Part shown: in pieces, positions 34,808 to 61,081 of the stretch
Numbering within the stretch: position 1 is the first letter of the stretch
How the letters are laid out: every line of letters starts with the position of its first letter
Source: an uncultured delta proteobacterium
Lineage (GTDB): Bacteria; Myxococcota; Myxococcia; SLRQ01
Reading direction: 5' to 3'
DNA length: 64,000 nucleotides
Assembly: GCA_963727485.1 (NCBI GenBank)
Contig: CAVSGM010000002.1
Span: 192,001 to 256,000, forward strand
Notes under the pieces: model-generated
Database searches by the model: none
Seen by the model: the letters and a program-made list of their open reading frames with translations, nothing else
What the model was told of the DNA's origin: nothing
Program-made: the position numbers and the translations under genes

Positions 34808-36353
34808 TCAGCCCAGGGGGCCGGCGGCGTGCTCGGCCGCGCCGAGGATCACGCCCTCGTCGATCAGGGCGCACAGGGCCTCGATGTCCTTGTGGAGGGT
34901 CCGGTCCCCGTCGAGGGGGGGAACCTTCCGGCGGATGGCCGCGTGGACGGGCACCACACCCTTCCCGGGCTTCACCGGGAGCCGGTACTCCAGGGCCTGG
35001 GCGGCGCAGAGCATCTCGATGGCCGAGGATGGTCCGCACGTTCTCCACCACCGTGCGCAGCTTCACCGCCGCGGTCATGCCCATGGACACGTGGTCCTCG
35101 CGGCCGGCGCTCGAGGGGATGGAGTCGACCGACGCCGGGTGGCAGAGGATCTTGTTCTCGGCGACCAGGGCCGCGGCGGTGACCTGGGCGATCATGAAGC
35201 CCGAGTCGAGGCCCGGCTCGTGGGCGAGGAACGGCGGGAGCCCCGAGAGGCTCGGGTTGACCAGCTGCTCGATGCGCCGCTCGCTGATGCTCCCGAGCTC
35301 GGCGACGGCGATGGCGAGGAAGTCGAGGGCGAGGGCCACCGGCTGGCCGTGGAAGTTCCCGCCGCTGACGATCTCGCCGGTGTCGGGGAAGACCAGGGGG
35401 TTGTCGGTGGCGGAGTTCACCTCGCGCTCCAGGACCTGCCGGGCGTAGGCGATGGCGTCGCGGGACGCGCCGTGGACCTGGGGCATGCAGCGCAGGGAGT
35501 AGGGGTCCTGGACCTTGCCGCAGCTCCGGTGGCTCTCGACGATGCCGCTCTCGTCGAGGAGGGCGCGGAGGTTGGCCGCCACGGTGGCCTGGCCCGGGTG
35601 GCCGCGCACCGCGTGGAGGGGCGCGTCGAAGGGCTTCACGCTGCCCATCAGGCCCTCGAGGGTCAGGGCCCCGGCGACGTCGGCGGTGCGGGCCACCGAC
35701 TCGGCGCGCAGCAGCGCCAGGGTGCCCACGGCGGTCATGGCCTGGGTGCCGTTGATGAGGGCGAGGCCCTCCTTGGCCCGGAGGGTCACCGGCGCCAGGC
35801 CCGCGCGCGCCAGGGCCTCGCCGCCGGGGAGGCGCTCGCCGTCGTGCCAGGCCTCGCCCTCGCCCACGAGGACCAGCGCCAGGTGGGCCAGCGGCGCCAG
35901 GTCGCCGGAGGCGCCGAGCGACCCCTTCTCGGGGACCACCGGCACCACGTCCCGGTTGAGCATCTCGACCAGGAGGTCGACGATCTCGGGCCTGGCCCCG
36001 GAGTGGCCCTTGGCCAGCACGTTGGCCCGCAGCACCATCAGGGCGCGGGCCTCGTCCTCGGAGAGGGGCTCGCCGACGCCGCAGGCGTGGGAGCGCACCA
36101 GGTTGAGCTGGAGGCGGGCGAGGTCGTGGGGATCGATCCGGACCTCGGCGAGCTTCCCGAAGCCGGTGTTGATCCCGTAGACGAGCCGGTCCGAGGCGAG
36201 GATGTCCTCGACGACGGCGCGGGCGCGGCCCACGGCGGCGCGGGCCTCGGGGGCGACCTCCACCGAGGCGCCGTCGCCGGCGACGAGGGCCACCTCTTCG
36301 AGGCGGAGGGTGTCGCCGTCGAGGGCCACGTGACGGGGATGGGACGCGGGCAT
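34808..36353 (-). CDS. hutH: Histidine ammonia-lyase (frameshift near 35022)
   Basis: [12 protein letters not shown] motif [31 protein letters not shown] and EDHVSMG. Confidence 0.95.
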
Positions 36354-38276: not shown

Positions 38277-39093
38277 TCAGCGCACCACGGTCCCGAAGCC
38301 GGCGAAGAGCTCGGCGGCCAGCCGACTGGCCGTGGCGGCCCCGGCGCAGGTAGCTGTTGACCACCCGGTGGGTCTTCGGGTCCCGGTGGCGGTGGGGGTG
38401 GGCCAGGTCCAGGTAGGCCCGGTCGACGCCCCGGCTGCCGTACTGCACCAGGACCACGGTTCCGTCGGCGCGGATGCGCTCGACCAGGGCCACGTGGGTC
38501 AGCGGGTCGTCCCGGCGCCCGTCCCGGTTCCGGTCGAGGGTGTCGTGGAAGAAGACCAGGTCGCCGGGGTGGGGGCCGTCCCGGTGGAGGCCGCCGCGGC
38601 GCCGGACGTAGCCGTAGATGATGGCGACGCCGTTCTCCCGGCGGTGGGAGGCGCCGTCGGCGAAGAGGTCGATGCCCTCGCTGCGGTAGACCGCCTGGGC
38701 GAGGCCCGAGCAGTCGGCGCGGTAGCGGTGCCCGTGGAGCCGGAGGCGCCGGCGGCCCACCAGGCGTCCGGCGAGGTCGGCGAGGGCGTCCTGGCGGGCG
38801 AGGATCCGGGCCCGGGCGTGGGCGACCTCCCCGGGGGCCTCGGGGGAGAGGCTGGCGAGGGCCGGGGTGGGGCGGGGGGCCCGGGCGGTGGCCGCGGCGG
38901 GGGCCGGCGCCGGGGCGGGCACCGCCGGGGGCGGCGCGGGGTAGTGGGTCGGCGGGGGCGGGGGCACCGCGTCCTGGAACCGGCTGGCGAGGGCGGCGGC
39001 GTCCAGGGGGGTGCGCACCGGGGCCACGGCGCAGCCGCCGGCGAGGAGGGCGGCGGCGGCGAGGAGGACCAGGCTCGAGGTGCTGCGTGACAT
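38277..39093 (-). CDS. NlpC/P60 (CHAP-like) lipoprotein cell-wall peptidase (frameshift near 38328)
   Basis: Lipobox AGGC, DCSGL, PGDLVFF, THVALV; corrected C-terminus RLAAELFAGFGTVVR*. Confidence 0.85.
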
Positions 39094-39242
39094 CTTCCGC
39101 CGCCTTCCAGGGTACCGGGGCGGACGATCCGGTCAACTTCGGGGCCGGGAGTGTGGCCTCCGTCCCCGGGCCCGTGGTATCCCCTCCGGACCCGCCCCTT
39201 CGGGCCCTCGGGGAGACGGCGATCCTGGAAAATGCTTCAAGG

Positions 39243-41122
39243 ATGACGCGCAAGTACCTGATCTGGAGCGCCTTTCTCCTTCTGCTCCTCGGCGGCGGCG
39301 GCTGCGCCAGCGCCTTCCAGGAGGCGGCGCGGGCGGACACGCCGGCGGCCTACCGGGCCTTCCTCGCCAGCGGCCAGGGGACCGACGCCGAGCGCCAGTC
39401 CGCCAGGAGCCGCCTCGACGCCATCAGCTTCGACCGGGCGCGGAAGGCCGGGACCCTCGCCGGGTACAAGCGCTACCTCGAGGCCTTCCCCCACGGCGAC
39501 CACGCCGAGTCCGCCGCCGCCGCCCTCGAGGCCCTGCGCTTCAAGGCGGCGATGGGCACCCAGGGGCCCTGGGCCCTGGAAGACTTCCTCGCCCGCTACC
39601 CCAGCGGGCCCCACTCGGCGGCGGCGCGCGACGCCCTGTCGGTCCGGACCCGCAAGGCGGCGCTGGCGAGCAAGGACCCGGCGCGGTACCGGGCGTGGCT
39701 CGACCGCTACCCCGACGCCCCGGGGGCGGCCGCAGGTCCGCCGGGCCCTCGCCCAGCGCGCCTGGGCCCGGGCGTCGAAGGCGGGCACCTTCGCGGCCCT
39801 GTCCCACTTCGTCCACGCCTTCCCCGGCGATCCCCACCAGGCGGGAGGCGGCGCTCCGGATCCGGGCCCTGGAGGTCCGGGCCGGCGTCGCCGCCGGGAA
39901 GCTCGACGCGGCACGCAAGGTGGTCGCCGGCACCGGCAACCCCGAGGGCCCACGCCCGCCTCCAGGCGGCCTTCGACCGGGCGCTCCTCCACCGGGCCCT
40001 CGTGGACCTCGACCCGGCGGCCCTCGGGGCCCTCGCCGCCGAGCCCGGGGTGGGGCCCCGAGGCCGCCGCGGCCCTGAAGGCCCTCCGGGCCCGGCCCCG
40101 GCATGGGCGCCGGCTCACCGCCGCCGCCGAGGTCCTGGCCACCCCCGCCGCCGGGCCTCACCGAGGTGGAGATCACCGCGGGCCTCGCCAGCACCGACCC
40201 CCGGCGCCGCCGGGTCTCCGTCCGGGCGCTCGGCTACACCCGGGATCCGGACCGCCTCCGGCGCCTGGTCGACGCCCTCGGGGACCCGGACCTCCTGGTC
40301 CGCCTCGAGGCCCAGGGGGCGATCCGGCGCCTGGCCGCCAGCCTCGATCCCCTGGTCCGGGACGTGGCCTTCGCCGCCAACCTCCAGCGCCTCCACGCCC
40401 GGGCCGCCGGGAGCAGGCTGCTCACCGCCGAGGGCATCGTCCTCGAGGCCGCCGGCCGCCCGGGGGCCCGGGACGCCCTCCGCCGCGCCGCCGCGAACCC
40501 GGGGCGGATCCTGGCGCCGCTCCACCTCGTCGACCTCGAGACCGACCCCGAGCGCCGGTGGGTGGCCCTGACCCAGGCGGCCCACCGGATCATGGCCGCC
40601 GTCCACGACCGCCTCGGTGCCCTGGACCGGGCCCGGACCAAGGGGCCGGTGGACGTGGCCCTCCTGCGCCAGTGCGCCGGCTTCGACCAGGTCCTCGGGC
40701 AGGTCCTCGCCCACACCGCCGGCGTCGCGAAGGCCCGGGCCCAGGCCACCGGCCTCCCCAAGGTCGAGCCGCTCCCCTGGGCCGCCGACGCCCGCACCCT
40801 CGAGGCGCGCCTCCACCGGATGCGGGCCGACGCCGAGGCCCGGGCCCGGGTCGTCGACCGGAGCTACCTGTCCTTCGACGTGGACGAGGGCGCCGGTCGG
40901 CGGGCCGCGGCGGCGAAGAAGAAGCTCGCGGCGGTGAAGGTCCTCGCCCGGGCGCCCGGGGTGCCTGGGGTCCACGCCGCCCTGGCGCGCGCCGCCCGGA
41001 GCCCCCTCGCCGCAGTGGCCGCCGCGGCCCGGGGGGTGCTCGCCGCCGAGGCGAAGCCGGCGCCGGAGACCGCGGCGAAGACCGCGAACCCGGCGCCGAA
41101 GACCGCGGAGGGCGCCCGATGA
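39243..41122 (+). CDS. Helical-repeat lipoprotein with HEAT-like repeats (several frameshifts between ~39735 and ~40075)
   Basis: Signal peptide ending GGGC; repeated Y..FL..YP.G.H units; ALGY..LVDALGDPDLLVRLEA HEAT-like segment in the final frame. Confidence 0.65.

Positions 41123-44820: not shown

Positions 44821-44824
<4 letters not shown>
44156..44824 (+). CDS. Hypothetical lipoprotein with Pro-rich tail
   Basis: Lipobox LGAC; AWDATVAVLASRGFPL..ASGIVQTGW resembles BamC-like helix-grip lipoproteins; start uncertain. Confidence 0.65.
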
Positions 44825-46422
<1,598 letters not shown>

Positions 46423-46425
46423 GCG

Positions 46426-46698
46426 ATGGGTATGAAGGACAAGGCCACCAACCTCGGGATGAAGGTCATGAACGACATCATGACCGACCCCGAGAAGGCC
46501 CAGAAGCTGGCGAAGGCCATGGGGGCCTACCAGAAGGGGCGTGACTCGGTGCGCGAGAGCCAGGAGAAGCTCCTGCACTCGGTGGGGCTGCCCACCACCG
46601 GTGACGTCGAGGGCCTCACCAAGCGGATCTCGAAGGTCCGCCGACGCATCAAGGACGTGTCCAAGCGTCTGGGAAAGGTGCAGGGACGACTGGCTTGA
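46426..46698 (+). CDS. Small basic coiled-coil protein (phasin-like C-terminus)
   Basis: AAGGAG RBS; GLPTTGDVEGLTKRI segment. Confidence 0.7.
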   Translation: MGMKDKATNLGMKVMNDIMTDPEKAQKLAKAMGAYQKGRDSVRESQEKLLHSVGLPTTGDVEGLTKRISKVRRRIKDVSKRLGKVQGRLA

Positions 46699-46723
46699 CA
46701 GGCGGCCGAGCCAACACCATACT
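46695..46723 (+). promoter_or_regulatory. Sigma70 promoter of tRNA-Val
   Basis: TTGACA-17 nt-CATACT followed by a GC-rich discriminator. Confidence 0.7.
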
Positions 46724-46743: not shown

Positions 46744-46818
46744 GCGCGCGTAACTCAGCGGTAGAGTGCCACCTTCACACGGTGGAAGTCGCTGGTTCGA
46801 ACCCAGCCGCGCGTACCA
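46744..46818 (+). tRNA. tRNA-Val (anticodon CAC)
   Basis: Acceptor stem GCGCGCG/CGCGCGT, D arm ACTC/GAGT, anticodon arm CCACC-TTCACAC-GGTGG, T arm GCTGG-TTCGAAC-CCAGC, encoded CCA. Confidence 0.96.
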
Positions 46819-46865: not shown

Positions 46866-46882
46866 CGACGCCGCGCCTACTG

Positions 46883-48317
46883 ATGGCTGCTTCCGAGCGC
46901 AGGCCCCGGGCCCTGGTCGTCGACGACGACGACGGGATGCGTGGGAACATGGCCCACATCCTCGAGGCCGACGGCTTCGAGACGGTGGGCGCGGTCGACG
47001 GGATGGACGCCCTGGGGCGGCTCGAGCGCGCCAGCTTCGACATCGCCCTCCTCGACATCCAGATGCCGGGCATCGACGGCCTGGAGACGCTGAAGCGGAT
47101 CCGGGAGAAGGCGCCGGAGGTCGAGGTGGTGATGGTCACGGTGCTCAAGGAGATCCCCAAGGTCGTCGAGGCGATGAAGCTCGGGGCCTTCGACTTCCTC
47201 ACCAAGGACTTCCGGGCCAGCGAGCTGCAGCTCAAGGCCCAGCAGGCCCTGACCCACAGGCGCACCGCCCGGCAGATGGCCTACCTCCGCGACGAGGTGG
47301 AGCGACAGGCCCCCGGCGAGATGATCATGGGCGACGGGCCGGCGATGCGCGAGGTGTCGACCCTGGTCGACAAGGTGGCGCCGCTCCCCGCCACGGTGCT
47401 GGTCCTCGGCGAGAGCGGGACGGGCAAGGAGCTGCTGGCCAGGCGTCTCCACCGCATCTGGTCCGGGGGCGACAAGAAGAAGCCCTTCGTCACGGTGAAC
47501 CTGGCGGCGATGCCCGCCAGCCTCATCGAGTCCCAGCTCTTCGGGCACGAGAAGGGGGCGTTCACCGGGGCCACCGAGCAGCGCCTGGGGAAGTTCGAGC
47601 TCGCCGACGGAGGCACGCTCTTCCTCGACGAGATTGGCGAGCTGCGCCTCGATCTCCAGGCGAAGCTCCTGCGCGCCATCCAGGAGCGCGAGGTGGAGCG
47701 CCTCGGGGGCAAGCGTCCGGTGCCGGTGGATGTCCGGCTCATCACCGCCACCAACGTCGACCTCAAGGAGGCGGTCCACGCCGGTCGCTTCCGTGAAGAC
47801 CTCTACTACCGCATCAACGTCATCCCCATCCGGCTGCCGCCCCTGCGCGAGCGCATCGAGGACGTGCCGGTGCTGGCGCGGCACTTCGCCCGGAAGGCGG
47901 GGCAGCGGTTCAACCGGCCAGTGCCCGAGCTCACCGACACGGCGCTCGAGGTGCTGATGCGCTACCCCTGGCCCGGGAACGTCCGGGAGCTGGAGAACCG
48001 CATCGCCGGGCTGGTGGCGGTGCAGGACCGGCCGGTCATCGACGACGTGGACCTGCCCATCGAGTTCAGCTACCCGCGCTTCTACGACGAGGCCCGGCGC
48101 AAGAAGGCGGACGGGCTGGCGGTGGCGCTCACGGCCTTCGAGCGGTCGTTCATCGCCATGACCCTGGAGAAGACGGGGTGGCACCGGAAGCAGGCGGCGG
48201 CGGAGCTGGGCATCGGCTACTCGACGCTGAAGAAGAAGCTCAAGAAGCTGGGTGCTCGCGCCGCCCGGGGGGCGCCACGCCGACGGGGACCCGGACGGCG
48301 ACGACGACGAGGGGTGA
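46883..48317 (+). CDS. NtrC-family sigma54-dependent response regulator
   Basis: REC domain (VVDDD, LLDIQMPG), GESGTGKE, GHEKGAFTGA, WPGNVREL, HTH; a probable late frameshift near 48253 gives the end ..DGDDDEG* at 48317 (the uncorrected ORF runs to 48421). Confidence 0.93.
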
Positions 48318-48362
48318 GCCCTCACCGGCGCCGGAGGGACGTGGCGCGCGTGGCCGGCGTCG

Positions 48363-50141
48363 TCAGGCGGCGTCGGGGGACGACTCGGCCACCGGGGGAC
48401 TGGCGCGCCGGGGCAGGGTGACCACGAAGACGGCGCCGCCGCTGGGGCGGTTCCCGGCGGAGACGGTGCCCCCCTGCTCCTCGACGATGCGACGGACCAC
48501 GGCGAGGCCGAGGCCGAGGCCGTTGCCCGAGCCCTTGGTGGTGCGGAAGGCGTCGAAGAGGTCGTGGAGGAGCGCCGGGGGGATGCCCGGGCCGTCGTCC
48601 TCGACCACCACGGTGACCCGGCTCGCCTCGAGGCCGACGCGGAGGGTGACGTGTCCCCCGTGGTCGCGGAGGGCGTCGAGGGCGTTCTCCACGAGGTTGC
48701 GCACGGCGCGCTCGAGGGCCAGGGCGTCGACCTCGACCATGGGGTCCCCGTCGCCCTCGACGACCAGGGCGAGGGAGATGCCGCGGGTGCGGGCGGTGGC
48801 GGTGAGGCTGCCCTCGAGGCGACGGAGGAGGTCGGGGAGGAGCACCGGCGCGGCCTCGGCCTCCCGGGGGTTGGCGAACTCCGAGAGGTCGGCGAAGAGC
48901 CGGTCGATGTAGGCCTGCTCCCGGTCGAGGTTCGCCTCGAGGTCTTGGCGGGTGGCCTCGGTCTCGGGGATGTCGAGGAAGGTCCGGACGTGGGTGATGA
49001 GGTGCTGGAACGGGCGCTTGAGATCGTGGGCCAGCCCGCCGGCGATGCGGCCGAAGAACGCCAGGCGCTCCTGGCGGCGAATCTCCTGGGTGAGGGTGCC
49101 GAGGTCCTCGGCCATGTGGTTGAAGCCCCGGGCCAGGTCGCCGAGCTCGTCGGGGCGGTCGTGGTGGACGCGGACGGTGAAGTCGCCCTCGCCGATGCGC
49201 CGGGCGCCGGCGGCGAGGCGCTCCACGGGGTTGACGATGGTCCGGGCGCCGATGAAGGTCACGGTGCCCACGGCGAGGAGCGCCGCGAAGAGCACGATGA
49301 GCAGGCCGAGGCCGAGCGCCCGCGCCTGGGCGAAGGCGTCCCGCGCAGGTGTCTCCACCACGGCGACCCAGTCGGTGCCCGGGACGGAGGCGGCGGCGCC
49401 GACCACCTGCAGCCCGTCGCGGCGGTCATAGGTCGCCGACACGGCGCCGCCGTCCTTCTCCACCTCGTTCACGATCTTCGGGGTGGGGTAGGGGCGGCGC
49501 TGGATGGCGTAGACGAGCTCCTTGGCGATGCCGTGGGCGAAGAGGTGCCCGTGGCGGTCGACGAGGTAGGTGTAGCCGGTGCGACCGAGGCGCAGGTCGC
49601 GGACCATGGACCACAGCTCCAGGGTGTCGACCTCGGCGGCGAGCGCCCCCACGGTCCGCCCGAGGCGGTGGACCGGCACGGCCACGGCCATCACCGGCAG
49701 CAGGTCGTCGCCGATGACCACCTGGGTCACCTGGGGCTTGCCGGTGGCCAGGGTCTTGTCCGCGGCGCCGCGCACCAGCTTGGAGGGCCCCTTGTCCGGC
49801 AGCAAGGTGCTGAAGGTCCGTTTGCCCCCGTGGTCGAAGTCGACCAGGTAGCGCAGGGTGCGGTCCTCGAGGAGCGCCCGCGCCAGCACCCGGTCGGTCT
49901 CGGTGGCGTCGAGCCCGTTGCCCGGGCTCACCGCCGCCCCCACCGCCCGCACCACGTCCACGCGCCCGCGGACGAAGGCCCCGACCCGCTTGGCCACCTC
50001 CGACGCCGCCGCCCGGGTCCCGGCGGTCACGCCCTCCTGCGCCCCGCGGATTCCGGACCAGGTGGCGTAGACCCCGTAGGCGCCGAGGGGAAAGAGCGTG
50101 GTGAGCGCCAGGAAGAGCAGGAGCTTGGCGCGCAGGCGCAT
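48363..50141 (-). CDS. Membrane sensor histidine kinase (TM-dCache-like-TM-HAMP-HisKA-HATPase)
   Basis: Two TM helices, GRTGYTYLVDRHGHLFAH Cache motif, DELGDLARGFNHMA HAMP, AHDLKRP H-box, DDGPGI and GLGLGL. Confidence 0.93.
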   Translation of the reverse strand: MRLRAKLLLFLALTTLFPLGAYGVYATWSGIRGAQEGVTAGTRAAASEVAKRVGAFVRGRVDVVRAVGAAVSPGNGLDATETDRVLARALLEDRTLRYLVDFDHGGKRTFSTLLPDKGPSKLVRGAADKTLATGKPQVTQVVIGDDLLPVMAVAVPVHRLGRTVGALAAEVDTLELWSMVRDLRLGRTGYTYLVDRHGHLFAHGIAKELVYAIQRRPYPTPKIVNEVEKDGGAVSATYDRRDGLQVVGAAASVPGTDWVAVVETPARDAFAQARALGLGLLIVLFAALLAVGTVTFIGARTIVNPVERLAAGARRIGEGDFTVRVHHDRPDELGDLARGFNHMAEDLGTLTQEIRRQERLAFFGRIAGGLAHDLKRPFQHLITHVRTFLDIPETEATRQDLEANLDREQAYIDRLFADLSEFANPREAEAAPVLLPDLLRRLEGSLTATARTRGISLALVVEGDGDPMVEVDALALERAVRNLVENALDALRDHGGHVTLRVGLEASRVTVVVEDDGPGIPPALLHDLFDAFRTTKGSGNGLGLGLAVVRRIVEEQGGTVSAGNRPSGGAVFVVTLPRRASPPVAESSPDAA

Positions 50142-51494
50142 CTAGTGGGCCTTGGCCGGGCGGATGGAGAGGGCCAGCGAGTAGGGCTCGGTCGAGTCGG
50201 GCTTGGGATGGACGAAGCGGAAGCGCTTGGAGGTGACGGCGACGCGGGGGAGCACGCCCAGCGGCACGAAGGGCGGGTTCTCCGCGAGGCGCTTGCGGAT
50301 GTCCTTCCAGGTCGCGCCCTTGGCGAGCATGGCGTCGAGGACCGGGTCGTGGTGGTGGCCGACGTTCAGGCGGGCGCTCGATGGCGACATACAACGTTGG
50401 GGCCCGAGCGGGTGGCGCAAGTTGATGAAGCTAGGCGGAGGTCGAGCTTCCATGGGCTGGCCAAGTCGCTGCTTGGGCCACATGCTGTCACATGAGCCTG
50501 GACTCCTGCATCCGCTAGGCTCACGAAGAGGTCTTCGGTCGCCATGCGCGATCTCCTCGAGGTTGACGATCTCGAGGTCTAGCGGCTTGGTGATGGTCTT
50601 CAGCATCCTCTTGCACCCAGCGCGGAGGGGCGTGTCAGAACCGACTTGCCGATGGACCCGTGCGGGCGTCGGGGCCAGCCCATAGGCGACCTGCCAACGC
50701 CCGGAAGGCAGGAGTGATGGCTCTGGCAATGCACCGCCGGACCGCCGTGACTTTGGAGTAGGGGCTCATCTTCGTTGAAGACGAGCACAGCCTCGGTGTT
50801 CCTCTGCAGTACGGAGTCACCAGTCCTACCCGAGGCAGCGAGCAGGCGATCGTGCTGTAGGGGGAGCCCGCCGGCCACGTCGGCGTCGCCGGCTAGCAGG
50901 TGGGCGAAGACGGCCACGCGGCCCCGAGACGTGTCGGACGACCATCAGCCGAGGGTCGTGCATGGGCTGCACGGCGCGCGAGACAGATCCGGCTGGGCGC
51001 TCTGGGAGCGACCCGGTACGGGCCTGCGCCAATCCACGCCCCGTCCCGACCTCTTCGGGCAACGGGTGCCCACGGGACCGCGTGCATGTCCGGTGTCGGC
51101 AGGTGCAGGATACAGCCTGCCGTTGCGCTGCCAGTGCCAGCTCTCGCTCTGGGACCCCAGATGCAGCTCACGGCGGATCGCGCTGACGAGGTCGCGCGGC
51201 CGGATCGGGGAGCCGTCCTGGAAGTACCAGGTCGGCTTGAGGTTCGACCGCACAAGGATTCTCGCTGGGGCAGTGCAGGGCAGCCGGATAAGACGTGATC
51301 CGAGTGGAGGCGCAATTAGGTCGAGCAGGGTGGCCGAGTCGCCGTTGTGGGGCATGCCGGGAACGAGCGGCTCGAGAGGGCGGGGTGAGACCCACACGAG
51401 CGGTCGCTCCTGGCGCTGGCGGGCGTGGCCTGACACAGGCCGACAGGAGAAGCCCAAGCGCAAGCGCAAGCGGTACAGTCCTTCGGTGCCTCAC
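50142..51494 (-). CDS. Family-5 (OppA/DppA-like) solute-binding lipoprotein, broken by about 8 frameshifts (assembly errors or pseudogene)
   Basis: In order across frames: lipobox LLSAC; FQDGSPIRPRDLV; WIGAGPYRV; AHLLAGDADVA; LVFNEDEPLL/TAVRRCIARAI; LFVSLADAGVQAHV; NVGHHHDPVLDAML..RLAENPPFVPL; TAG directly abuts the kinase ATG. Confidence 0.75.
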
Positions 51495-51529
51495 CGAGAC
51501 AGCCTAGTCGTAGTCGCGCAGTCCGACGG

Positions 51530-51562
51530 AAGACAAAGGCCCCCGTCGCTGACGAGGGCCTC
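51530..51562 (-). terminator. Intrinsic terminator after the peptide gene
   Basis: Minus strand AGGCCCTCGTC-AGC-GACGGGGGCCT followed by TTGTCTT. Confidence 0.75.
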
Positions 51563-51588
51563 TCGAATCTCAGAACGGTGACCGCGGG

Positions 51589-51657
51589 TTAGAAGCCGGC
51601 GAGGGCGTCGCAGGGGATGCGCTTCCGATTCCGCTTGTTGAGGGGCTTCTTGACCAT
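51589..51657 (-). CDS. Putative RiPP precursor peptide, 22 aa: MVKKPLNKRNRKRIPCDALAGF
   Basis: ATG..TAA with AAAGGAAGG RBS 6 nt upstream, GC3-rich codons, a downstream terminator, and position directly after the radical SAM gene; below the ORF-track cutoff. Confidence 0.8.
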   Translation of the reverse strand: MVKKPLNKRNRKRIPCDALAGF

Positions 51658-51778
51658 GGCGAACCTTCCTTTCGGGAAGTGGGGGGACTTCGTTGGGGGG
51701 GACTTCAGGGGGCAGAGGTCGGGCTTGCAGGTCCCCACACGTGGGGAGCCTCCCGGCCCCGGCGTCGGACAAAGGCGG

Positions 51779-53107
51779 CTAGGCCGCCACTTCCTCCGAG
51801 GGCATCCGGCCCTCGTAGAACTCGTCGAGGTAGCGCCGCTTCAGGGTCTCGCGGCCCACCGTGTCGAAGTAGTCGTGCTCACAGCTCACGCCGAGGGTGC
51901 CGTTGCGGCGGTAGGTCGTCGCCCGGCAACCGCCGGCGCACACGGGCAGGTACTCGCACTGGCCGCAGTCCTTCACCGGGTCGAGGCTCTCGAGGAGCTC
52001 GACGCGGGGCAGCCAGCGGTCGTCGGTGATCCGGCCGACGGCCATCTTCGGATCGCCCACCAGGACGTCGCACTTGTAGAGGTAGCCGCCGGCGTCGACG
52101 AGCAGGTACTGGTCCATGTGGAGGCCACAGGGGCCGAGGCCGAACTCGGGCTCGGGGCTGAGGCCCGAGCTCACCGCCTTCATCTGGAGGTGGACCAGGC
52201 CGTCGGGGTCGGCGTCGGAGATGCGGGTGGCGCAGTCGCCGTCGCCGCGTCCGTCGAGGACCGGCTTGAACTTCAGCTCGCTGATGGCGTCGGCGAGCCC
52301 CTCGCGGCGCAGCACGTCGGCGAGCTCGCCGTACGCGTGCTCGAGGCCCGCGGGCACGTTGCTGCCGATGTGGATGCGCACCCGCCCGGCGACCGCCTTG
52401 AGGTTCGCGAGGATCTGGTCCCAGGAGCCCGTCCCGTCCTTGCGAACCCGGCTCTGGTCGTGGTGGTGCTTGGGCCCGTCGAGGGTGACCTTGACCGACT
52501 CGAGCCCCAAGGGCGCCATGGCGTCGACGAAGGGCCGGTCGAGGAGGGCGCCGTTGGTGATGATCCGGCAGCTGAAGGCGCGACCGTCCTCGGCGAGCTC
52601 GCGCTGGAAACGCTCGGCGGTGCGGAGGATGAGGGGCTTCTTGAGGAGCGGCTCGCCGCCGAAGTAGGTGAGCTCCAGGGTGTGGAGGTCGTAGCGGGCC
52701 ATCCGGCGCCGGACCCAGCCGTGGAGCGCCTGCTCCACCGTCTTGCCCATCCCCGGCCCGCTGGGGCCACCCTCGGCCTCGTAGCAGTAGGGGCACCCGA
52801 AGTTGCAGTTCTCGGTGACCAGCACCCGCAGGCGCAGCACTCCGTCGCCCTGCTTCATCCCCAGCATGAAGTCGCGGAGGGCGGCGTCGTCGGCGACCTC
52901 GTCCTCGACGAGGAAGCCCTCGGCCGAAAGGTAGTCGACCTCCTCCTGCTCGAGGGCGCTCGCCGGCGGCCCGCCCGACAGGGACCCGACCCAGCCGAGG
53001 GCCCGGTCGTCGAGGCCGACCAGGTTGTCGGTCAGGGTGTTGTAGAGGACGTGCTCCCCGGGGAGTGGGAAGTCTCGGATGAGGACGTGGAACCGGGTGA
53101 GCTGCAT
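51779..53107 (-). CDS. Radical SAM/SPASM domain peptide maturase with RRE-like N-terminus
   Basis: CNFGCPYC, YFGGEPLL, ITNG, TLDG; SPASM GPC..YKC..CGQC-x5-C-x3-C..VSC; N-terminal LYNTLT..LSAEGFLV segment; GGAGA RBS before ATG 53107. Confidence 0.93.
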   Translation of the reverse strand: MQLTRFHVLIRDFPLPGEHVLYNTLTDNLVGLDDRALGWVGSLSGGPPASALEQEEVDYLSAEGFLVEDEVADDAALRDFMLGMKQGDGVLRLRVLVTENCNFGCPYCYEAEGGPSGPGMGKTVEQALHGWVRRRMARYDLHTLELTYFGGEPLLKKPLILRTAERFQRELAEDGRAFSCRIITNGALLDRPFVDAMAPLGLESVKVTLDGPKHHHDQSRVRKDGTGSWDQILANLKAVAGRVRIHIGSNVPAGLEHAYGELADVLRREGLADAISELKFKPVLDGRGDGDCATRISDADPDGLVHLQMKAVSSGLSPEPEFGLGPCGLHMDQYLLVDAGGYLYKCDVLVGDPKMAVGRITDDRWLPRVELLESLDPVKDCGQCEYLPVCAGGCRATTYRRNGTLGVSCEHDYFDTVGRETLKRRYLDEFYEGRMPSEEVAA

Positions 53108-53137
53108 GGGGTGTCTCCCTGAATCGCCCCCCGAGAG

Positions 53138-53153
53138 AGCAGGGAGCGTGCCA
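53138..53153 (-). promoter_or_regulatory. Sigma54 promoter of the radical SAM-peptide operon
   Basis: Minus strand TGGCACGCTCCCTGCT (GG-N10-GC), 30 nt upstream of the start codon. Confidence 0.8.
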
Positions 53154-53163
53154 CCCGCCAGGG

Positions 53164-53558
53164 GGCTCCAAATCGAGCCCTCCCGACTCGGCTCAGCGGT
53201 CCAAGCTGGAAATCTCAATTGATTTCAACCACCTGTCACCAAGGCTCAAAATAGAGCCCCACGTGGCTACCCTCGCCCGAAGCGACACAAGCCACCGGAA
53301 TCACTGTGAATCGCCTGGACCAGGCCCCGAATGGGGCTTATCCCGACCCCAGGGGACTCTTCCAAAAAACACCTGTGATCACAAGGCGTTGGAAAGAGGG
53401 TGGCGACCCCGCCGGGGCACGTCGCCCAGCTTCGGGAAAGGGCTCCATTTGGAGCCCTTTCGTCCCGGGGCGGGGCCAGATCACGGGGAAATACCAATAA
53501 AAACCGTGATTTGGGCGCAGCCGCTCCTAGGCGAGCCCTCAGGTCTCACCCTAGAGCC
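53164..53558. promoter_or_regulatory. Six palindromic GGCTC-N6-GAGCC-type sites
   Basis: Starts at 53164, 53243 and 53441 (perfect), 53323 (GGCCC/GGGCT), 53522 (CGCTC/GAGCC) and 53543 (GTCTC/GAGCC). Confidence 0.75.
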
Positions 53559-53563
53559 AGTGG

Positions 53564-53579
53564 TGGCACGCCGCTGGCA
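53564..53579 (+). promoter_or_regulatory. Sigma54 promoter of the divergent small protein-kinase operon
   Basis: TGGCACGCCGCTGGCA (GG-N10-GC). Confidence 0.7.
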
Positions 53580-53594
53580 AAAGAGACCAGTGCA

Positions 53595-53843
53595 ATGTCC
53601 AGGCTCGCCAAGGTCAAGGTCGTCGAGCTCGACGGGAAAAAGGTGTTCCTCCACTTCTACGAGGACGTCTCGACCCTCGGGACGCCCCGCTACTCGGTGG
53701 AGATCCGCTTCGGCCCCGAGGACCGCGTCGTCTTCGACGGCCCCAGCATCTCGGACCTCGAGGCGACCACCCAGGCCTGCCTCCCTGCCACCTGGGCCAG
53801 CCGGCGGATGCTCGCCGGCGCGGCCTACGGCGCCCCCCACTGA
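53595..53843 (+). CDS. Small hypothetical protein (82 aa)
   Basis: MSRLAKVKVVELDGKK..., strong GC3 bias starting at this ATG, TGATG coupling to the next gene. Confidence 0.75.
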   Translation: MSRLAKVKVVELDGKKVFLHFYEDVSTLGTPRYSVEIRFGPEDRVVFDGPSISDLEATTQACLPATWASRRMLAGAAYGAPH

Positions 53844-54718
53844 TGCAACCCCTCGCCTCCCAGCCGACGCCCTCGCGTCCCTACCGCGCCGATCCCATGC
53901 CCCGCGACCCCGAGCTTCACGCCGCCCGCCTCGTCGAGCTGGGCAGCCTGGTACCGGGGCTGGTGCACGAGCTCTCGAACCCGGCCGCGGTCCTCCGGGG
54001 CAACCTCGGCGCCGTCGTCGACCACGCCGACACCCTGGGCCGACTGGTCAACGGCCTCGACCAGGGGCAGGACGCCTCGGCCCTGCGCCGGGACCTCGAG
54101 CTCGATGACACCGCCATCGACCTCGCCGAGCTGGTGGGCGAGTCCGCCGGCGCCCTCGACGAGCTGGTCTCCCTCCTCGGCGACATCCGTCACTACGCCG
54201 CCGGCGCCGAGGCCGAGGCCGAGGCCGATCTCGCCTCGGCCGTCGCCGCCGCCCTGCGCCTCGCCACCTACGAGACCAAGTACCGGGCCGCCGTGAGCGT
54301 CGGCGTCGGCGACCTCCCTCGGATCGCCCTGTGCCCCGTCCACCTGGTGCAGCTGGTGCTGGCCCTCATCCTCAACGCCGCCCAGGCCCTCGCCGACCAC
54401 CGGCAGCTCCACGGCGACCTGGGCCACGTGTCCCTCTCGGCCAGGGCCGAGGGCGACGACCTCGTCGTCCTCGAGGTCCGCGACGACGGCCCCGGCGTGT
54501 CCCCCGACCTCGCCGACCGCGTCTTCGAGCCCGGGGTCACCTCGCGGCCCGGGGCCAGGGGCATGGGCCTGTACCACGCCCGGAACCTCCTCGAGCGCGC
54601 CGGTGGCGCCCTCGTCCTCCAACCGCCCCGTGGCGGGGGCGCCGTCTTCGTCGCGCGCCTGCCCGCCCTCTCCGACGACATTCACAGTGAGGCCATCGGT
54701 CCTGTCCACAAGACATAG
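53843..54718 (+). CDS. Cytoplasmic histidine kinase without a sensor domain
   Basis: LVHELSNP H-box, LILNAAQA N-box, DDGPGV, GMGL; no TM segment. Confidence 0.88.
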   Translation: MQPLASQPTPSRPYRADPMPRDPELHAARLVELGSLVPGLVHELSNPAAVLRGNLGAVVDHADTLGRLVNGLDQGQDASALRRDLELDDTAIDLAELVGESAGALDELVSLLGDIRHYAAGAEAEAEADLASAVAAALRLATYETKYRAAVSVGVGDLPRIALCPVHLVQLVLALILNAAQALADHRQLHGDLGHVSLSARAEGDDLVVLEVRDDGPGVSPDLADRVFEPGVTSRPGARGMGLYHARNLLERAGGALVLQPPRGGGAVFVARLPALSDDIHSEAIGPVHKT

Positions 54719-59316: not shown

Positions 59317-59333
59317 GACCCCTTCCCGCGCCG

Positions 59334-60900
59334 TCAGCGTGCGGCCTGGCGCGGCTCCTCGAGGCCGTACTTCTCACACTTCGCGATGAGGTTCGAGCGG
59401 CTCACGCCCAGCTCGCGCGCGAGGCGCGACTTGTTCCAGTGGGTGCGGATGAGCCCCTGGTGGATCATCTCCCGCTCCAGGGCCTCGACGGCGTGCTTGA
59501 GCTTGCCGGTGGTCTTGATGGGGCTGACCCCCTTGGGCGTCCCCACCGCGTCGCGGATCCGGGGGCTGACCAGGTCGACCCCGAGCTCGCCGTCGTCGGC
59601 GCCGAGGACCAGGAGCCGCTCGAATCTCGTTCTCGAGCTCGCGGATGTTCCCGGGCCAGTCGTAGGTGCCCAGCAGCTCGAGGCACTCGCGCGCGAGGGT
59701 CCGGGCGTCGCCGTTGCCGTGCTTGCGCAGGAAGTGCTCCACCAGCAGGGGGATGTCGTCGCGGCGCTCGCGCAGGGCCGGGACGTCGATCTTGATGACG
59801 TTGATCCGGTAGTAGAGGTCCTCGCGGAACTCGCCGGCCTCGACCATCTTGGCCAGGTCCTTGTGGGTGGCGGCGATGACCCGGACGTCGACCTCCCTGG
59901 CGGAGGTCCCGCCCACCGGCGTGAAGGTGCCCTCCTGGAGCACCCGGAGGAGCTTGACCTGGAGGGTGGGGGACATGTCCCCGACCTCGTCGAGGAAGAA
60001 GGTCCCGCCGTCGGCGACCTCGAAGAGGCCCTTCTTGTCCTTGATGGCGCCGGTGAACGCGCCCTTCACGTGACCGAAGAGGGCGCTCTCCAGGAGGTTG
60101 TCGTTGAACGCCGAGCAGTTCTGGACCACGAACGCCTTGTCCTTGCGCGGCCCGTTGTAGTGGATGGCCCGGGCGACCAGCTCCTTGCCGGTGCCGCTCT
60201 CCCCGTGGACCAGGACCGTGGAGTCGGAGTTGCACACCTTCTCCAGGACCCGGTAGACGTCCTGCATCGCCTGGCTGGAGCCGATGATGGACTCGAAGCG
60301 GTAGCGCTCGGAGAGCTCGTCGGAGAGGTGCTGGATCTCCCGGTCGCGCTTGCCCATCTCCAGCTCGAAGGCGGCAATCTCGTCGGCGCCGAACTCGAGG
60401 AGGTCGCAGAGCTTCTCCACGCCCTCCGGGGGGATCACCGGGAGCCGCTGGACGGCCCGGTCGAGGTCGGTGGCCCCGGGGTTGAGCACCCGGATCCGCG
60501 AGCTGGCCTGCTCGACCTGCCGCTCGGTGAGATCCTCCCGGAGGAAGCCACCGACGAACATGAAGCCCTTGTACTCGGAGGCCACCACGATGGGGCAGCC
60601 GACGATGGTGAACCCCAGGTGGCAGTCGTGGAAGAGGCAGCGCCTGGGCTTCTTGCTGGCGCGGAACTTGTCGCCGACGAACTTCACCGACTCGTTGCAG
60701 CGCCGAAAGCCCTCCTTGGAGAAGAGCGAGAGGCGGCAGAAGTCGTTGTTCGGGGGGATGATCTGGCCGTTGGCGTGCTCGAGGACGTAGCCGGTCTTGT
60801 CGGCGAAGGCGAGCTCGAGGCCCCACCACTTGCGGATCACGTCCCGCAGCATGATGATGGTGTGCAGGTTCTGGTAGCGCTCGTACTCCTGCAACGCCAT
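59334..60900 (-). CDS. Second sigma54-dependent enhancer-binding protein with PocR-like domain (frameshift near 59622)
   Basis: NDFC..RRC..DCHLG, GESGTGKE, GHVKGAFTGA, WPGNIREL; HTH (HWNKSRLARELGVSRSNL) in the next frame. Confidence 0.92.
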
Positions 60901-61081
60901 GCTCTTTCTCCTCCCGGGACGGCCAGCGGTAAGGCGCCCCTTGGTGACTTGACCTGACCGGCGACACCCCACCGCCGGCTGCACAGAATCAGGACAATCC
61001 TACCGGCCCGATGTAGACAATCGCAAGGCACGATTGTCCTGATCCAGGGCAGACGCCGCCACCGAGGAGCGTTCCAAGACC

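What the first reader, a model, noticed from the sequence alone, without database searches (positions are those of the whole stretch)
46883..53579. Candidate RiPP-based autoinducing signalling circuit: radical SAM + 22-aa peptide + peptide-binding lipoprotein + Cache kinase + sigma54 activator
Seen: on the minus strand, a sigma54 promoter, then the SPASM maturase, the 22-aa peptide and a terminator; then a family-5 solute-binding lipoprotein whose stop abuts a dCache/HAMP kinase; then a convergent NtrC-type activator, all beside tRNA-Val. No ABC permease or ATPase accompanies the binding protein. Established: RRE-containing radical SAM/SPASM enzymes modify short ribosomal peptides, family-5 proteins bind peptides, binding proteins can present ligands to kinases (LuxP/LuxQ), and NtrC-type proteins activate sigma54 promoters. 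Inference: the modified peptide is captured by the lipoprotein, signals through the kinase and activator, and induces its own synthesis. That would be a peptide quorum-sensing loop, which I do not know to be described in this group. No exporter or protease is visible in the cluster.
Basis: partly seen in the sequence, partly recalled or inferred. Interest (0 to 1): 0.92.

Follow-up and report, generated by a model that had tools for sequence, protein, structure and literature searches.

The report
Self-sensing modified-peptide signalling cassette
A myxobacteria-related genome carries a gene cassette, kept in the same order in many relatives, that encodes a tiny cysteine peptide, an enzyme predicted to modify it, a binding protein (frameshifted in this assembly), a sensor kinase and an activator that likely switches the cassette on, so it is probably an unstudied peptide-based self-signalling loop of double-membraned bacteria.

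Summary
Mostly confirmed. The maturase, 22-aa peptide, Cache kinase, NtrC-type activator and sigma54 site are real. The 'lipoprotein' is not an intact gene here. It lies in frameshifted pieces, probably assembly errors, and is intact with a family-5 fold in a same-family genome. The terminator is only a hairpin.

Conservation: maturase-peptide-binding protein-kinase order holds in 23 of 23 class-level loci. Maturase and activator share 42 of their 44 genomes each, among 368. All 32 promoters examined carry a sigma54 site. A GGCY-N8-RGCC-type palindrome is strongly enriched there (109 versus 2.4 shuffled), and cassette activators share one recognition helix. A sixth gene (about 80 aa) lies under a divergent sigma54 site. 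Binding protein-kinase docking is weakly supported (0.49 versus 0.01). Distant relatives add TonB receptors and sometimes exporters.

Best reading: an autoinducing peptide loop (0.5). That the peptide is the ligand is untested, and no exporter is present here. It is a sister of NCBIfam's hypothetical geopeptide system, below both cut-offs. No describing paper was found. This scan noted the same system earlier on other DNA.

The parts
46744..46818 (+). tRNA-Val(CAC), upstream of the activator; a sigma70-like site lies at 46695-46723
46883..48317 (+). NtrC-type sigma54 activator (receiver, AAA+ with GAFTGA, HTH with helix IGYSTLK); 3' tail frameshifted in the assembly, end at 48317 inferred
   Evidence: Pfam; frames; error-free contigs with one gap over the tail in two runs (records 2 and 17); helix; 68% identical to G001 orthologue
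48363..50141 (-). Membrane histidine kinase: periplasmic dCache_1, HAMP, His372, HATPase
   Evidence: 46% identical to G001 orthologue
50142..51494 (-). Divergent family-5 solute-binding lipoprotein gene (lipobox LSAC), in frameshifted pieces; stop abuts the kinase start
   Evidence: collinear tblastn pieces against G001 protein P0115; indels versus public contigs; fold of P0115
51535..51563 (-). GC-rich hairpin after the peptide gene; weak terminator or mRNA-stabilising element (inferred)
   Evidence: z -0.81; not called a terminator
51589..51657 (-). 22-aa precursor peptide: K/R-rich leader, one Cys, hydrophobic end
   Evidence: analogous peptide in 23 of 23 class-level loci
51779..53107 (-). 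Radical SAM/SPASM maturase with an N-terminal extension (RRE-like by position, inferred)
   Evidence: TIGR04280 222.7 bits, cut-off 400; best solved relative 5WGG, E 9e-31
53138..53153 (-). Sigma54 -24/-12 site of the maturase operon
   Evidence: equivalent site in 32 of 32 upstream regions
53164..53456 (.). Three palindromes GGCTC-N6-GAGCC (53164-53179, 53243-53258, 53441-53456): candidate activator-binding sites
   Evidence: only cluster of this motif among 31 genome-wide matches; three copies at similar spacing in G001
53564..53579 (+). Divergent sigma54-like site (GG and GC conserved, one mismatch)
   Evidence: equivalent in 29 of 36 loci
53595..53843 (+). 82-aa protein of no known family, a sixth cassette member; followed here by a sensor-less kinase-like gene (53843-54718)
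   Evidence: hhalign to the family in other genera, probability 92%, E 6e-7; homologues behind the kinase in 6 acidobacterial loci; no Pfam hit

Best explanation
This is a conserved six-gene cassette that likely works as an autoinducing loop: the radical SAM enzyme is predicted to cross-link the peptide's cysteine, the matured peptide would reach the periplasm by an unknown route and likely bind the orphan family-5 lipoprotein, which is predicted to dock on the kinase's Cache domain, and the phosphorylated activator would then bind the palindromes and fire the two divergent sigma54 promoters. SHOWN: the genes, their order and co-occurrence, the promoter elements, the activator clade and its shared helix. 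INFERRED from family knowledge: thioether chemistry, kinase-to-activator phosphotransfer, activator binding at the palindromes. WEAKLY PREDICTED: lipoprotein-Cache contact. UNTESTED: the peptide as ligand, export, leader removal, sign of regulation. The output looks small: the cassette itself plus the 82-aa protein and, here, a bare kinase that may relay the signal.
For: Order maturase>peptide>binding protein>kinase in 23 of 23 class-level loci; activator convergent in 17 of 23, the other 6 ending at a contig edge. Among 368 class genomes, 44 have the maturase and 44 the activator's C-terminal region; 42 have both, 322 neither (kin are not independent). Sigma54 site in 32 of 32 upstream regions; palindrome 109 times versus 2.4 +/- 1.5 in 100 shuffles. 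Helix IGYST[LM]K in 16 of 16 class cassette activators, in 0 of 14 other G000 activators with an aligned HTH (2 more unaligned) and in 0 of 4 non-cassette activators of relatives. All 23 family-5-type cassette activators form one clade, support 0.999. Where the helix differs the palindrome is rare: 8 sites in 29 loci. P0115 model pLDDT 82, Foldseek top hits NikZ, AppA, CtaP, E about 1e-21. Lipoprotein-Cache prediction 0.49 versus best control 0.01, weak support: the mark was reached by 116 of 157 solved and 2 of 215 mismatched pairs, but at 0.60 or under by only 18 solved and both mismatches; runs agree in at least 75% of contacts, partner pLDDT at least 78. Over 14 loci the peptide core (24% mean identity) and binding protein (41%) diverge faster than leader (59%), maturase (62%), Cache (57%) and activator (70%). 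Distant relatives add a TonB receptor (16 of 36 hand-picked loci, plus L035), ABC exporters (L022, L035) or an MFS gene (L015, L027), which fits a product that leaves and re-enters.
Against: The binding-protein gene is broken in this assembly. No exporter, protease or TonB receptor was recognised next to the cassette in the window or in the 20 class-level loci read by ORF listing and BLAST (not all neighbours were Pfam-scanned). Core similarity tracks the binding protein no better than it tracks the cytoplasmic kinase core (partial r 0.39 versus 0.44), so there is no specific co-evolution signal. Family-5 folds also bind nickel complexes and sugars (PMC8050422). Geopeptide-type relatives use an unrelated PF04392 binding protein, and the two such activators placed in the tree fall outside the clade. 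Three acidobacterial loci (L026, L029, L043) show no activator in the fetched DNA. The palindrome pattern was drawn by eye from the regions it was then counted in. The complex score may reflect likeness to solved binding protein-kinase pairs.
Confidence: 0.5

Rival explanations
1. The modified peptide is a small metal-binding or redox-probing molecule. The lipoprotein binds the loaded form, so the circuit reports metal or redox status rather than cell density (methanobactin-like logic wired to a kinase).
For: Top structural neighbours include the nickel-complex binders NikZ and NikA. A TonB receptor plus an OppA-like binding protein is the methanobactin import set (PMC7558416, passages). Geopeptide-type precursors carry Cys-Cys.
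Against: One Cys in a highly variable hydrophobic core is a poor metal site. No metal-handling gene was recognised in the cassettes. The same structure search ranks peptide binders (AppA, OppA) alike.
Confidence: 0.2
2. Open chain, no loop: lipoprotein and kinase sense an unrelated cue and switch on the peptide as an output (antimicrobial or intracellular regulator), as streptococcal quorum sensing switches on RaS-RiPPs.
For: No export route in the class-level cassettes. Binding-protein families are swapped between lineages. The family-5 precedent CBP-ChiS senses a sugar (PMC8050422). No specific core-receptor co-evolution.
Against: The sensor genes lie downstream in the same orientation as the peptide operon. 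The binding protein is the fastest-diverging protein, together with the core. The activator's only strict-motif cluster in the genome is this promoter.
Confidence: 0.22
3. Independent of mechanism: in the sequenced strain the binding-protein gene is a real pseudogene, so this copy is signal-blind or decaying.
For: Frameshift density is far above the flanking genes (none in maturase, kinase or UvrD). GC3 is 0.68-0.81 in the tested frames versus 0.97 in neighbours. Substitutions versus the near strain are 8 synonymous to 12 non-synonymous. The correcting contigs come from one run at depth 2-5 and a strain about 95% alike.
Against: Three other syntenic genes and the activator tail are also frameshifted, and two other family-5 genes of the genome are split over frames. 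Error-free contigs show a gap at the activator tail. Six of 8 coding indels are extra bases in the window. With the near strain's differences, two stretches read open and match P0115 continuously over 54 and 64 residues.
Confidence: 0.3

Closest known systems
Geopeptide system (NCBIfam TIGR04280 maturase, TIGR04229 peptide; hypothetical equivalog)
   Same: Best full-length family match. Short Cys peptide beside the maturase. True members (L041, L047, L054: 543-654 bits) also sit by an orphan binding protein and a TonB receptor, and a kinase lies within reach in L041.
   Different: Window enzyme 222.7 bits against cut-off 400; peptide not matched. Peptide lies downstream with one Cys, rather than upstream with Cys-Cys. 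Family-5 rather than PF04392 binding protein; different activator clade; no TonB receptor.
Staphylococcal agr / autoinducing peptide loops (recalled)
   Same: Precursor, modifying enzyme, kinase and regulator in one locus with divergent promoters; variable core.
   Different: Diderm host, radical SAM chemistry, separate periplasmic receptor, sigma54 activator, no dedicated exporter or protease.
CBP-ChiS and LuxP-LuxQ of Vibrio (PMC8050422 table and text passages; PMC12704726 passages)
   Same: A binding protein controls a kinase with a dCache-like domain; CBP is family 5.
   Different: Their ligands are chitin oligosaccharide and AI-2, not a peptide made by the same operon.
CteB ranthipeptide maturase (PDB 5WGG) and streptococcal RaS-RiPPs
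   Same: Closest solved enzyme. RRE-radical SAM-SPASM layout (PMC8326336 passages). A paper title links SCIFF ranthipeptides to quorum sensing (reference line only).
   Different: Firmicute systems. In streptococci quorum sensing controls RiPP production (PMC8092268, abstract start). No binding protein-kinase-sigma54 cassette.
Methanobactin import (MbnT, MbnE; PMC7558416 passages)
   Same: RiPP plus TonB importer plus OppA-like periplasmic protein.
   Different: Different maturation chemistry (recalled); copper uptake; no Cache kinase or sigma54 activator described in the passages read.

Membership tests
Geopeptide maturase TIGR04280 | Score at or above 400 bits | tested here: not met
   222.7 bits; relatives 216-263; true members 543-654
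Geopeptide TIGR04229 | Precursor matches the model (30 bits) | tested here: not met
   no family hit; no match over cut-off in the genome
Radical SAM/SPASM peptide maturase | CxxxCxxC plus SPASM cysteine pattern | tested here: met
   PF04055, TIGR04085 above cut-off; cysteine positions
Radical SAM/SPASM peptide maturase | N-terminal RRE domain | tested here: inconclusive
   no Pfam hit for residues 1-85; best stretch to 5WGG starts at position 89; RRE inferred from position and full-length match to RiPP maturase models
Ranthi/sactipeptide RiPP | Thioether cross-link on the precursor | not testable with these tools
   a Cys is present in all 23 class-level precursors, partly by the search filter; needs mass spectrometry
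Family-5 solute-binding protein (PF00496) | Sequence score above gathering cut-off | tested here: inconclusive
   window pieces no hit; G001 protein 25.2 versus 32.4; several relatives above
Family-5 solute-binding protein (PF00496) | OppA/NikA-type fold | tested here: met
   G001 orthologue, pLDDT 82, TM-score 0.6-0.7; the alignment used contained family-5 members
Family-5 solute-binding protein (PF00496) | Intact gene in this genome | tested here: not met
   frameshifted as assembled; error or pseudogene unresolved
Binding-protein-gated kinase (LuxPQ / CBP-ChiS type) | Binding protein contacts the sensor domain | tested here: inconclusive
   weak support 0.49 versus 0.01
Sigma54 enhancer-dependent promoter | -24/-12 element with upstream palindromes and a GAFTGA activator | tested here: met
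   (sequence level only)
Autoinducing-peptide quorum sensing | Exported peptide activates its own receptor and synthesis | not testable with these tools
   needs binding and reporter assays
Autoinducing-peptide quorum sensing | Dedicated export or processing gene in the locus | tested here: not met
   none in the window cassette; exporters only in distant loci

The most novel reading that the evidence does not exclude
A widespread, undescribed peptide quorum-sensing system of double-membraned bacteria. A radical-SAM-cyclised mini-peptide with a lineage-specific core is read by its own fast-evolving periplasmic lipoprotein and Cache kinase, closes a sigma54 positive-feedback loop, and passes the signal on through a dedicated ~80-aa protein.
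Probability: 0.4. Interest if true: 0.9.

Novelty: new variant of a known kind. Interest (0 to 1): 0.72.

Why it matters
Peptide autoinduction is textbook for Gram-positive bacteria, and radical SAM RiPPs are mostly known as outputs of signalling. A loop in which the RiPP itself is the signal, read in a periplasm by an orphan binding protein, would extend peptide signalling to Myxococcota, Acidobacteriota and other diderms. It would also give the hypothetical geopeptide family a testable function. This locus supplies what a reporter needs: the promoter, candidate activator sites, the cognate activator and an intact binding protein from a relative.

Tried and rejected
Single-protein scan of metagenome contigs: 2 distant loci (25% identity), uninformative. 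Single-sequence fold of P0115: pLDDT 36, discarded. Sequence search of P0115 in the PDB: nothing; homologue search returned only itself. The exhaustive representative search did not run, so remote relatives of the binding protein outside the fetched loci are unexplored. No RNA holder listed. Run X5 laid nothing, and the 5' part of the binding-protein gene was not covered by the near-identical contigs of X1 and X3. Core-receptor co-evolution: not specific. First HMM of the small-protein family, built with one wrong-frame row, missed the window's gene; a clean profile comparison found it. Atlas hits for the small protein scored under 0.9 and are leads only. A HicB-like fold for it was a recalled idea with no Pfam support. 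Wider regulon: no second cluster of the strict palindrome in G000; a degenerate-motif scan was not done. Peptide-lipoprotein docking was not modelled: the peptide is under 30 residues and its modified form is unknown. Literature: 'geopeptide'+'radical SAM' 0 papers; TIGR04280/TIGR04229 0 occurrences in the 20 listed of 21 hits, which were unrelated 'geopeptide' substring matches; six-term search 0; searches listed nothing describing this cassette (listings only). Subscription papers and supplements were not searched and may hold the family in genome-mining tables.
Full report
OBSERVATION. Two details are wrong. The lipoprotein is not an intact ORF: 51494-50142 starts with a lipobox but shifts frame repeatedly, and none of 4 pieces matches Pfam. 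The terminator is a hairpin that the terminator scan does not call and whose folding is not significant. By the names that sources give to maturase homologues and related loci, the host is in Myxococcota (inference).

THE BROKEN GENE. Of 4 other genomes in the family, only G001 has the maturase, the kinase and the activator at the thresholds used. There the cassette is split over two contig ends, with the same flanking genes as the window on both sides. The peptide falls in the gap. G001 has an intact 448-aa gene abutting the kinase (P0115). It matches the window's pieces collinearly, best 49% over 65 aa. It scores below the PF00496 cut-off, but with a 37-row alignment it folds at pLDDT 82 and matches NikZ, AppA and OppA. 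Public contigs of a near strain differ from the window by 8 coding indels in 430 of the 581 bases covered by that run's three contigs in the gene. With those differences two stretches read open and match P0115 over 54 and 64 residues. Other genes of the assembly are also frameshifted, and error-free contigs show a gap at the activator's tail. Against this: the evidence is one run at depth 2-5, GC3 is low (0.68-0.81 versus 0.97), and substitutions are 8 synonymous to 12 non-synonymous. I put assembly error at about 0.7.

CONSERVATION. A 66-sequence maturase profile hits 44 of 368 class genomes. A profile of the activator's C-terminus hits 44; 42 are shared, and the 4 single cases are drafts 73-91% complete. 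I fetched 20 of the 44 for contig length and added 3 loci from the genome scan. Maturase, peptide, binding protein and kinase follow in that order in 23 of 23, and the activator converges on the kinase in 17; the other 6 end at a contig edge. Neighbouring genes differ between families. The all-species scan read 7 of 64 parts and kept 80 loci; I examined the first 50 and sent genes of 36 to Pfam. Of these, 22 have a family-5 protein (some under the cut-off), 13 a PF04392 protein, and 1 was truncated; 16 have a TonB receptor. L035, scanned later, has a receptor, a family-5 protein, an ABC exporter and a Cache kinase; L022 has ABC exporters; L015 and L027 have an MFS gene inside the cassette. More distant maturases (L050, L051, L053, L055-L057) showed no kinase or activator. 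Three acidobacterial loci show no adjacent activator.

PROMOTER. Of 36 upstream regions, 3 duplicates and 1 too short were dropped. All 32 remaining carry TGGCAY-N6-TGC 12-30 bases before the start. The palindrome GGCYV-N6-BRGCC occurs 109 times against 2.4 in shuffles, maximum 6. The pattern was drawn from these same regions, so the contrast is inflated. In G000 the strict form GGCTC-N6-GAGCC has 31 matches and clusters only here, three copies, as in G001. All 16 class cassette activators carry the helix IGYST[LM]K; no other activator of G000 with an aligned HTH does (0 of 14). The 23 family-5-type cassette activators form a clade apart from the genome's 16 others. In 29 loci of other phyla, where the helix differs in the 9 activators aligned, the motif occurs 8 times, and acidobacteria show a GGCCAA-N4-TTGGCC-like variant. 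This is good sequence evidence that this activator drives this promoter. Binding is not shown.

SIXTH GENE. A second sigma54-like site faces the other way in 29 of 36 loci and precedes a 70-85-aa gene. The window's 82-aa protein belongs to that family, and homologues lie just behind the kinase in 6 acidobacterial loci. It has no Pfam family. An earlier scan note reads it as a partner of sensor-less kinases; I did not test that.

MECHANISM. The closest solved enzyme is 5WGG, the CteB ranthipeptide maturase (name recalled; CteB is described in PMC8326336, passages). The precursors keep a basic leader and a Cys, so a thioether cross-link is the likely product (inference). The conserved extra C292 could fill the auxiliary cluster and point to other chemistry (recalled comparison). 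Family-5 proteins gating dCache-like kinases have a precedent in CBP-ChiS (PMC8050422, passages). The G001 lipoprotein-Cache pair got weak support, 0.49 against 0.01; passes at 0.60 or under were 18 of 157 solved pairs and both mismatches that passed among 215. The sensor genes lie in line behind the peptide, the core and the binding protein diverge fastest, and distant versions carry import and export genes. Together these favour the matured peptide as ligand and a positive-feedback loop (0.5). The gap is real: core-receptor co-evolution was not specific, no export route is encoded here, and the fold also binds metal complexes. Metal or redox sensing (0.2) and an open chain with an unrelated cue (0.22) stay open.

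KNOWN SYSTEMS AND NOVELTY. It is a sister of the geopeptide system but not a member: 222.7 bits against 400, while true members score 543-654, and the peptide model does not match. It would work like agr in logic and like CBP-ChiS or LuxPQ in sensing, but lacks a dedicated exporter. Seven searches of the open-licence library listed no paper on this cassette; subscription papers and supplements were not seen. Papers seen: PMC8050422, PMC12704726, PMC7558416 and PMC8326336 as passages; PMC8092268, PMC11626156 and PMC9389541 as listing and abstract start; agr recalled. The scan had noted the same system in 6 other genomes; these are unchecked notes and not evidence. Verdict: a real, widespread, uncharacterised cassette, a new variant of known kinds, interest 0.72. 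This copy is a poor experimental starting point unless the lipoprotein gene proves intact.

Noticed in passing
window 53843-54718 (+): Kinase-like gene with an HATPase domain but no sensor, overlapping the stop of the 82-aa gene; a similar gene follows the small gene in G001. A possible output relay of the cassette.
   Followed up: partly
window 46868-52958, runs X2 and X4: Contigs in these runs are about 99% identical over the maturase but only 92-97% over kinase, activator and binding-protein genes. Could be recombination within the cassette or mixed strains.
   Followed up: no
window 53164-53179: One palindrome ends only about 10 bases from the -24 element, in G001 too; it may limit rather than activate transcription.
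   Followed up: no
window 46695-46723 (+): Sigma70-like site before tRNA-Val; the activator may be read through from the tRNA promoter, giving a constitutive supply.
   Followed up: no
window 34814-36347, 39087-41122, 59319-60984: Three more genes are split over two frames relative to G001, consistent with indel errors in the assembly.
   Followed up: partly
L027:11397-11712: Three near-identical tandem precursor genes after the maturase.
   Followed up: no
L014:15039-15338 (-) and similar acidobacterial loci: An HU/IHF-family gene (PF00216) lies right behind the cassette; such proteins assist sigma54 promoters (recalled).
   Followed up: no
window 44821-46422 (+): Short DnaK-like protein, syntenic in G001, beside the cassette.
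   Followed up: no
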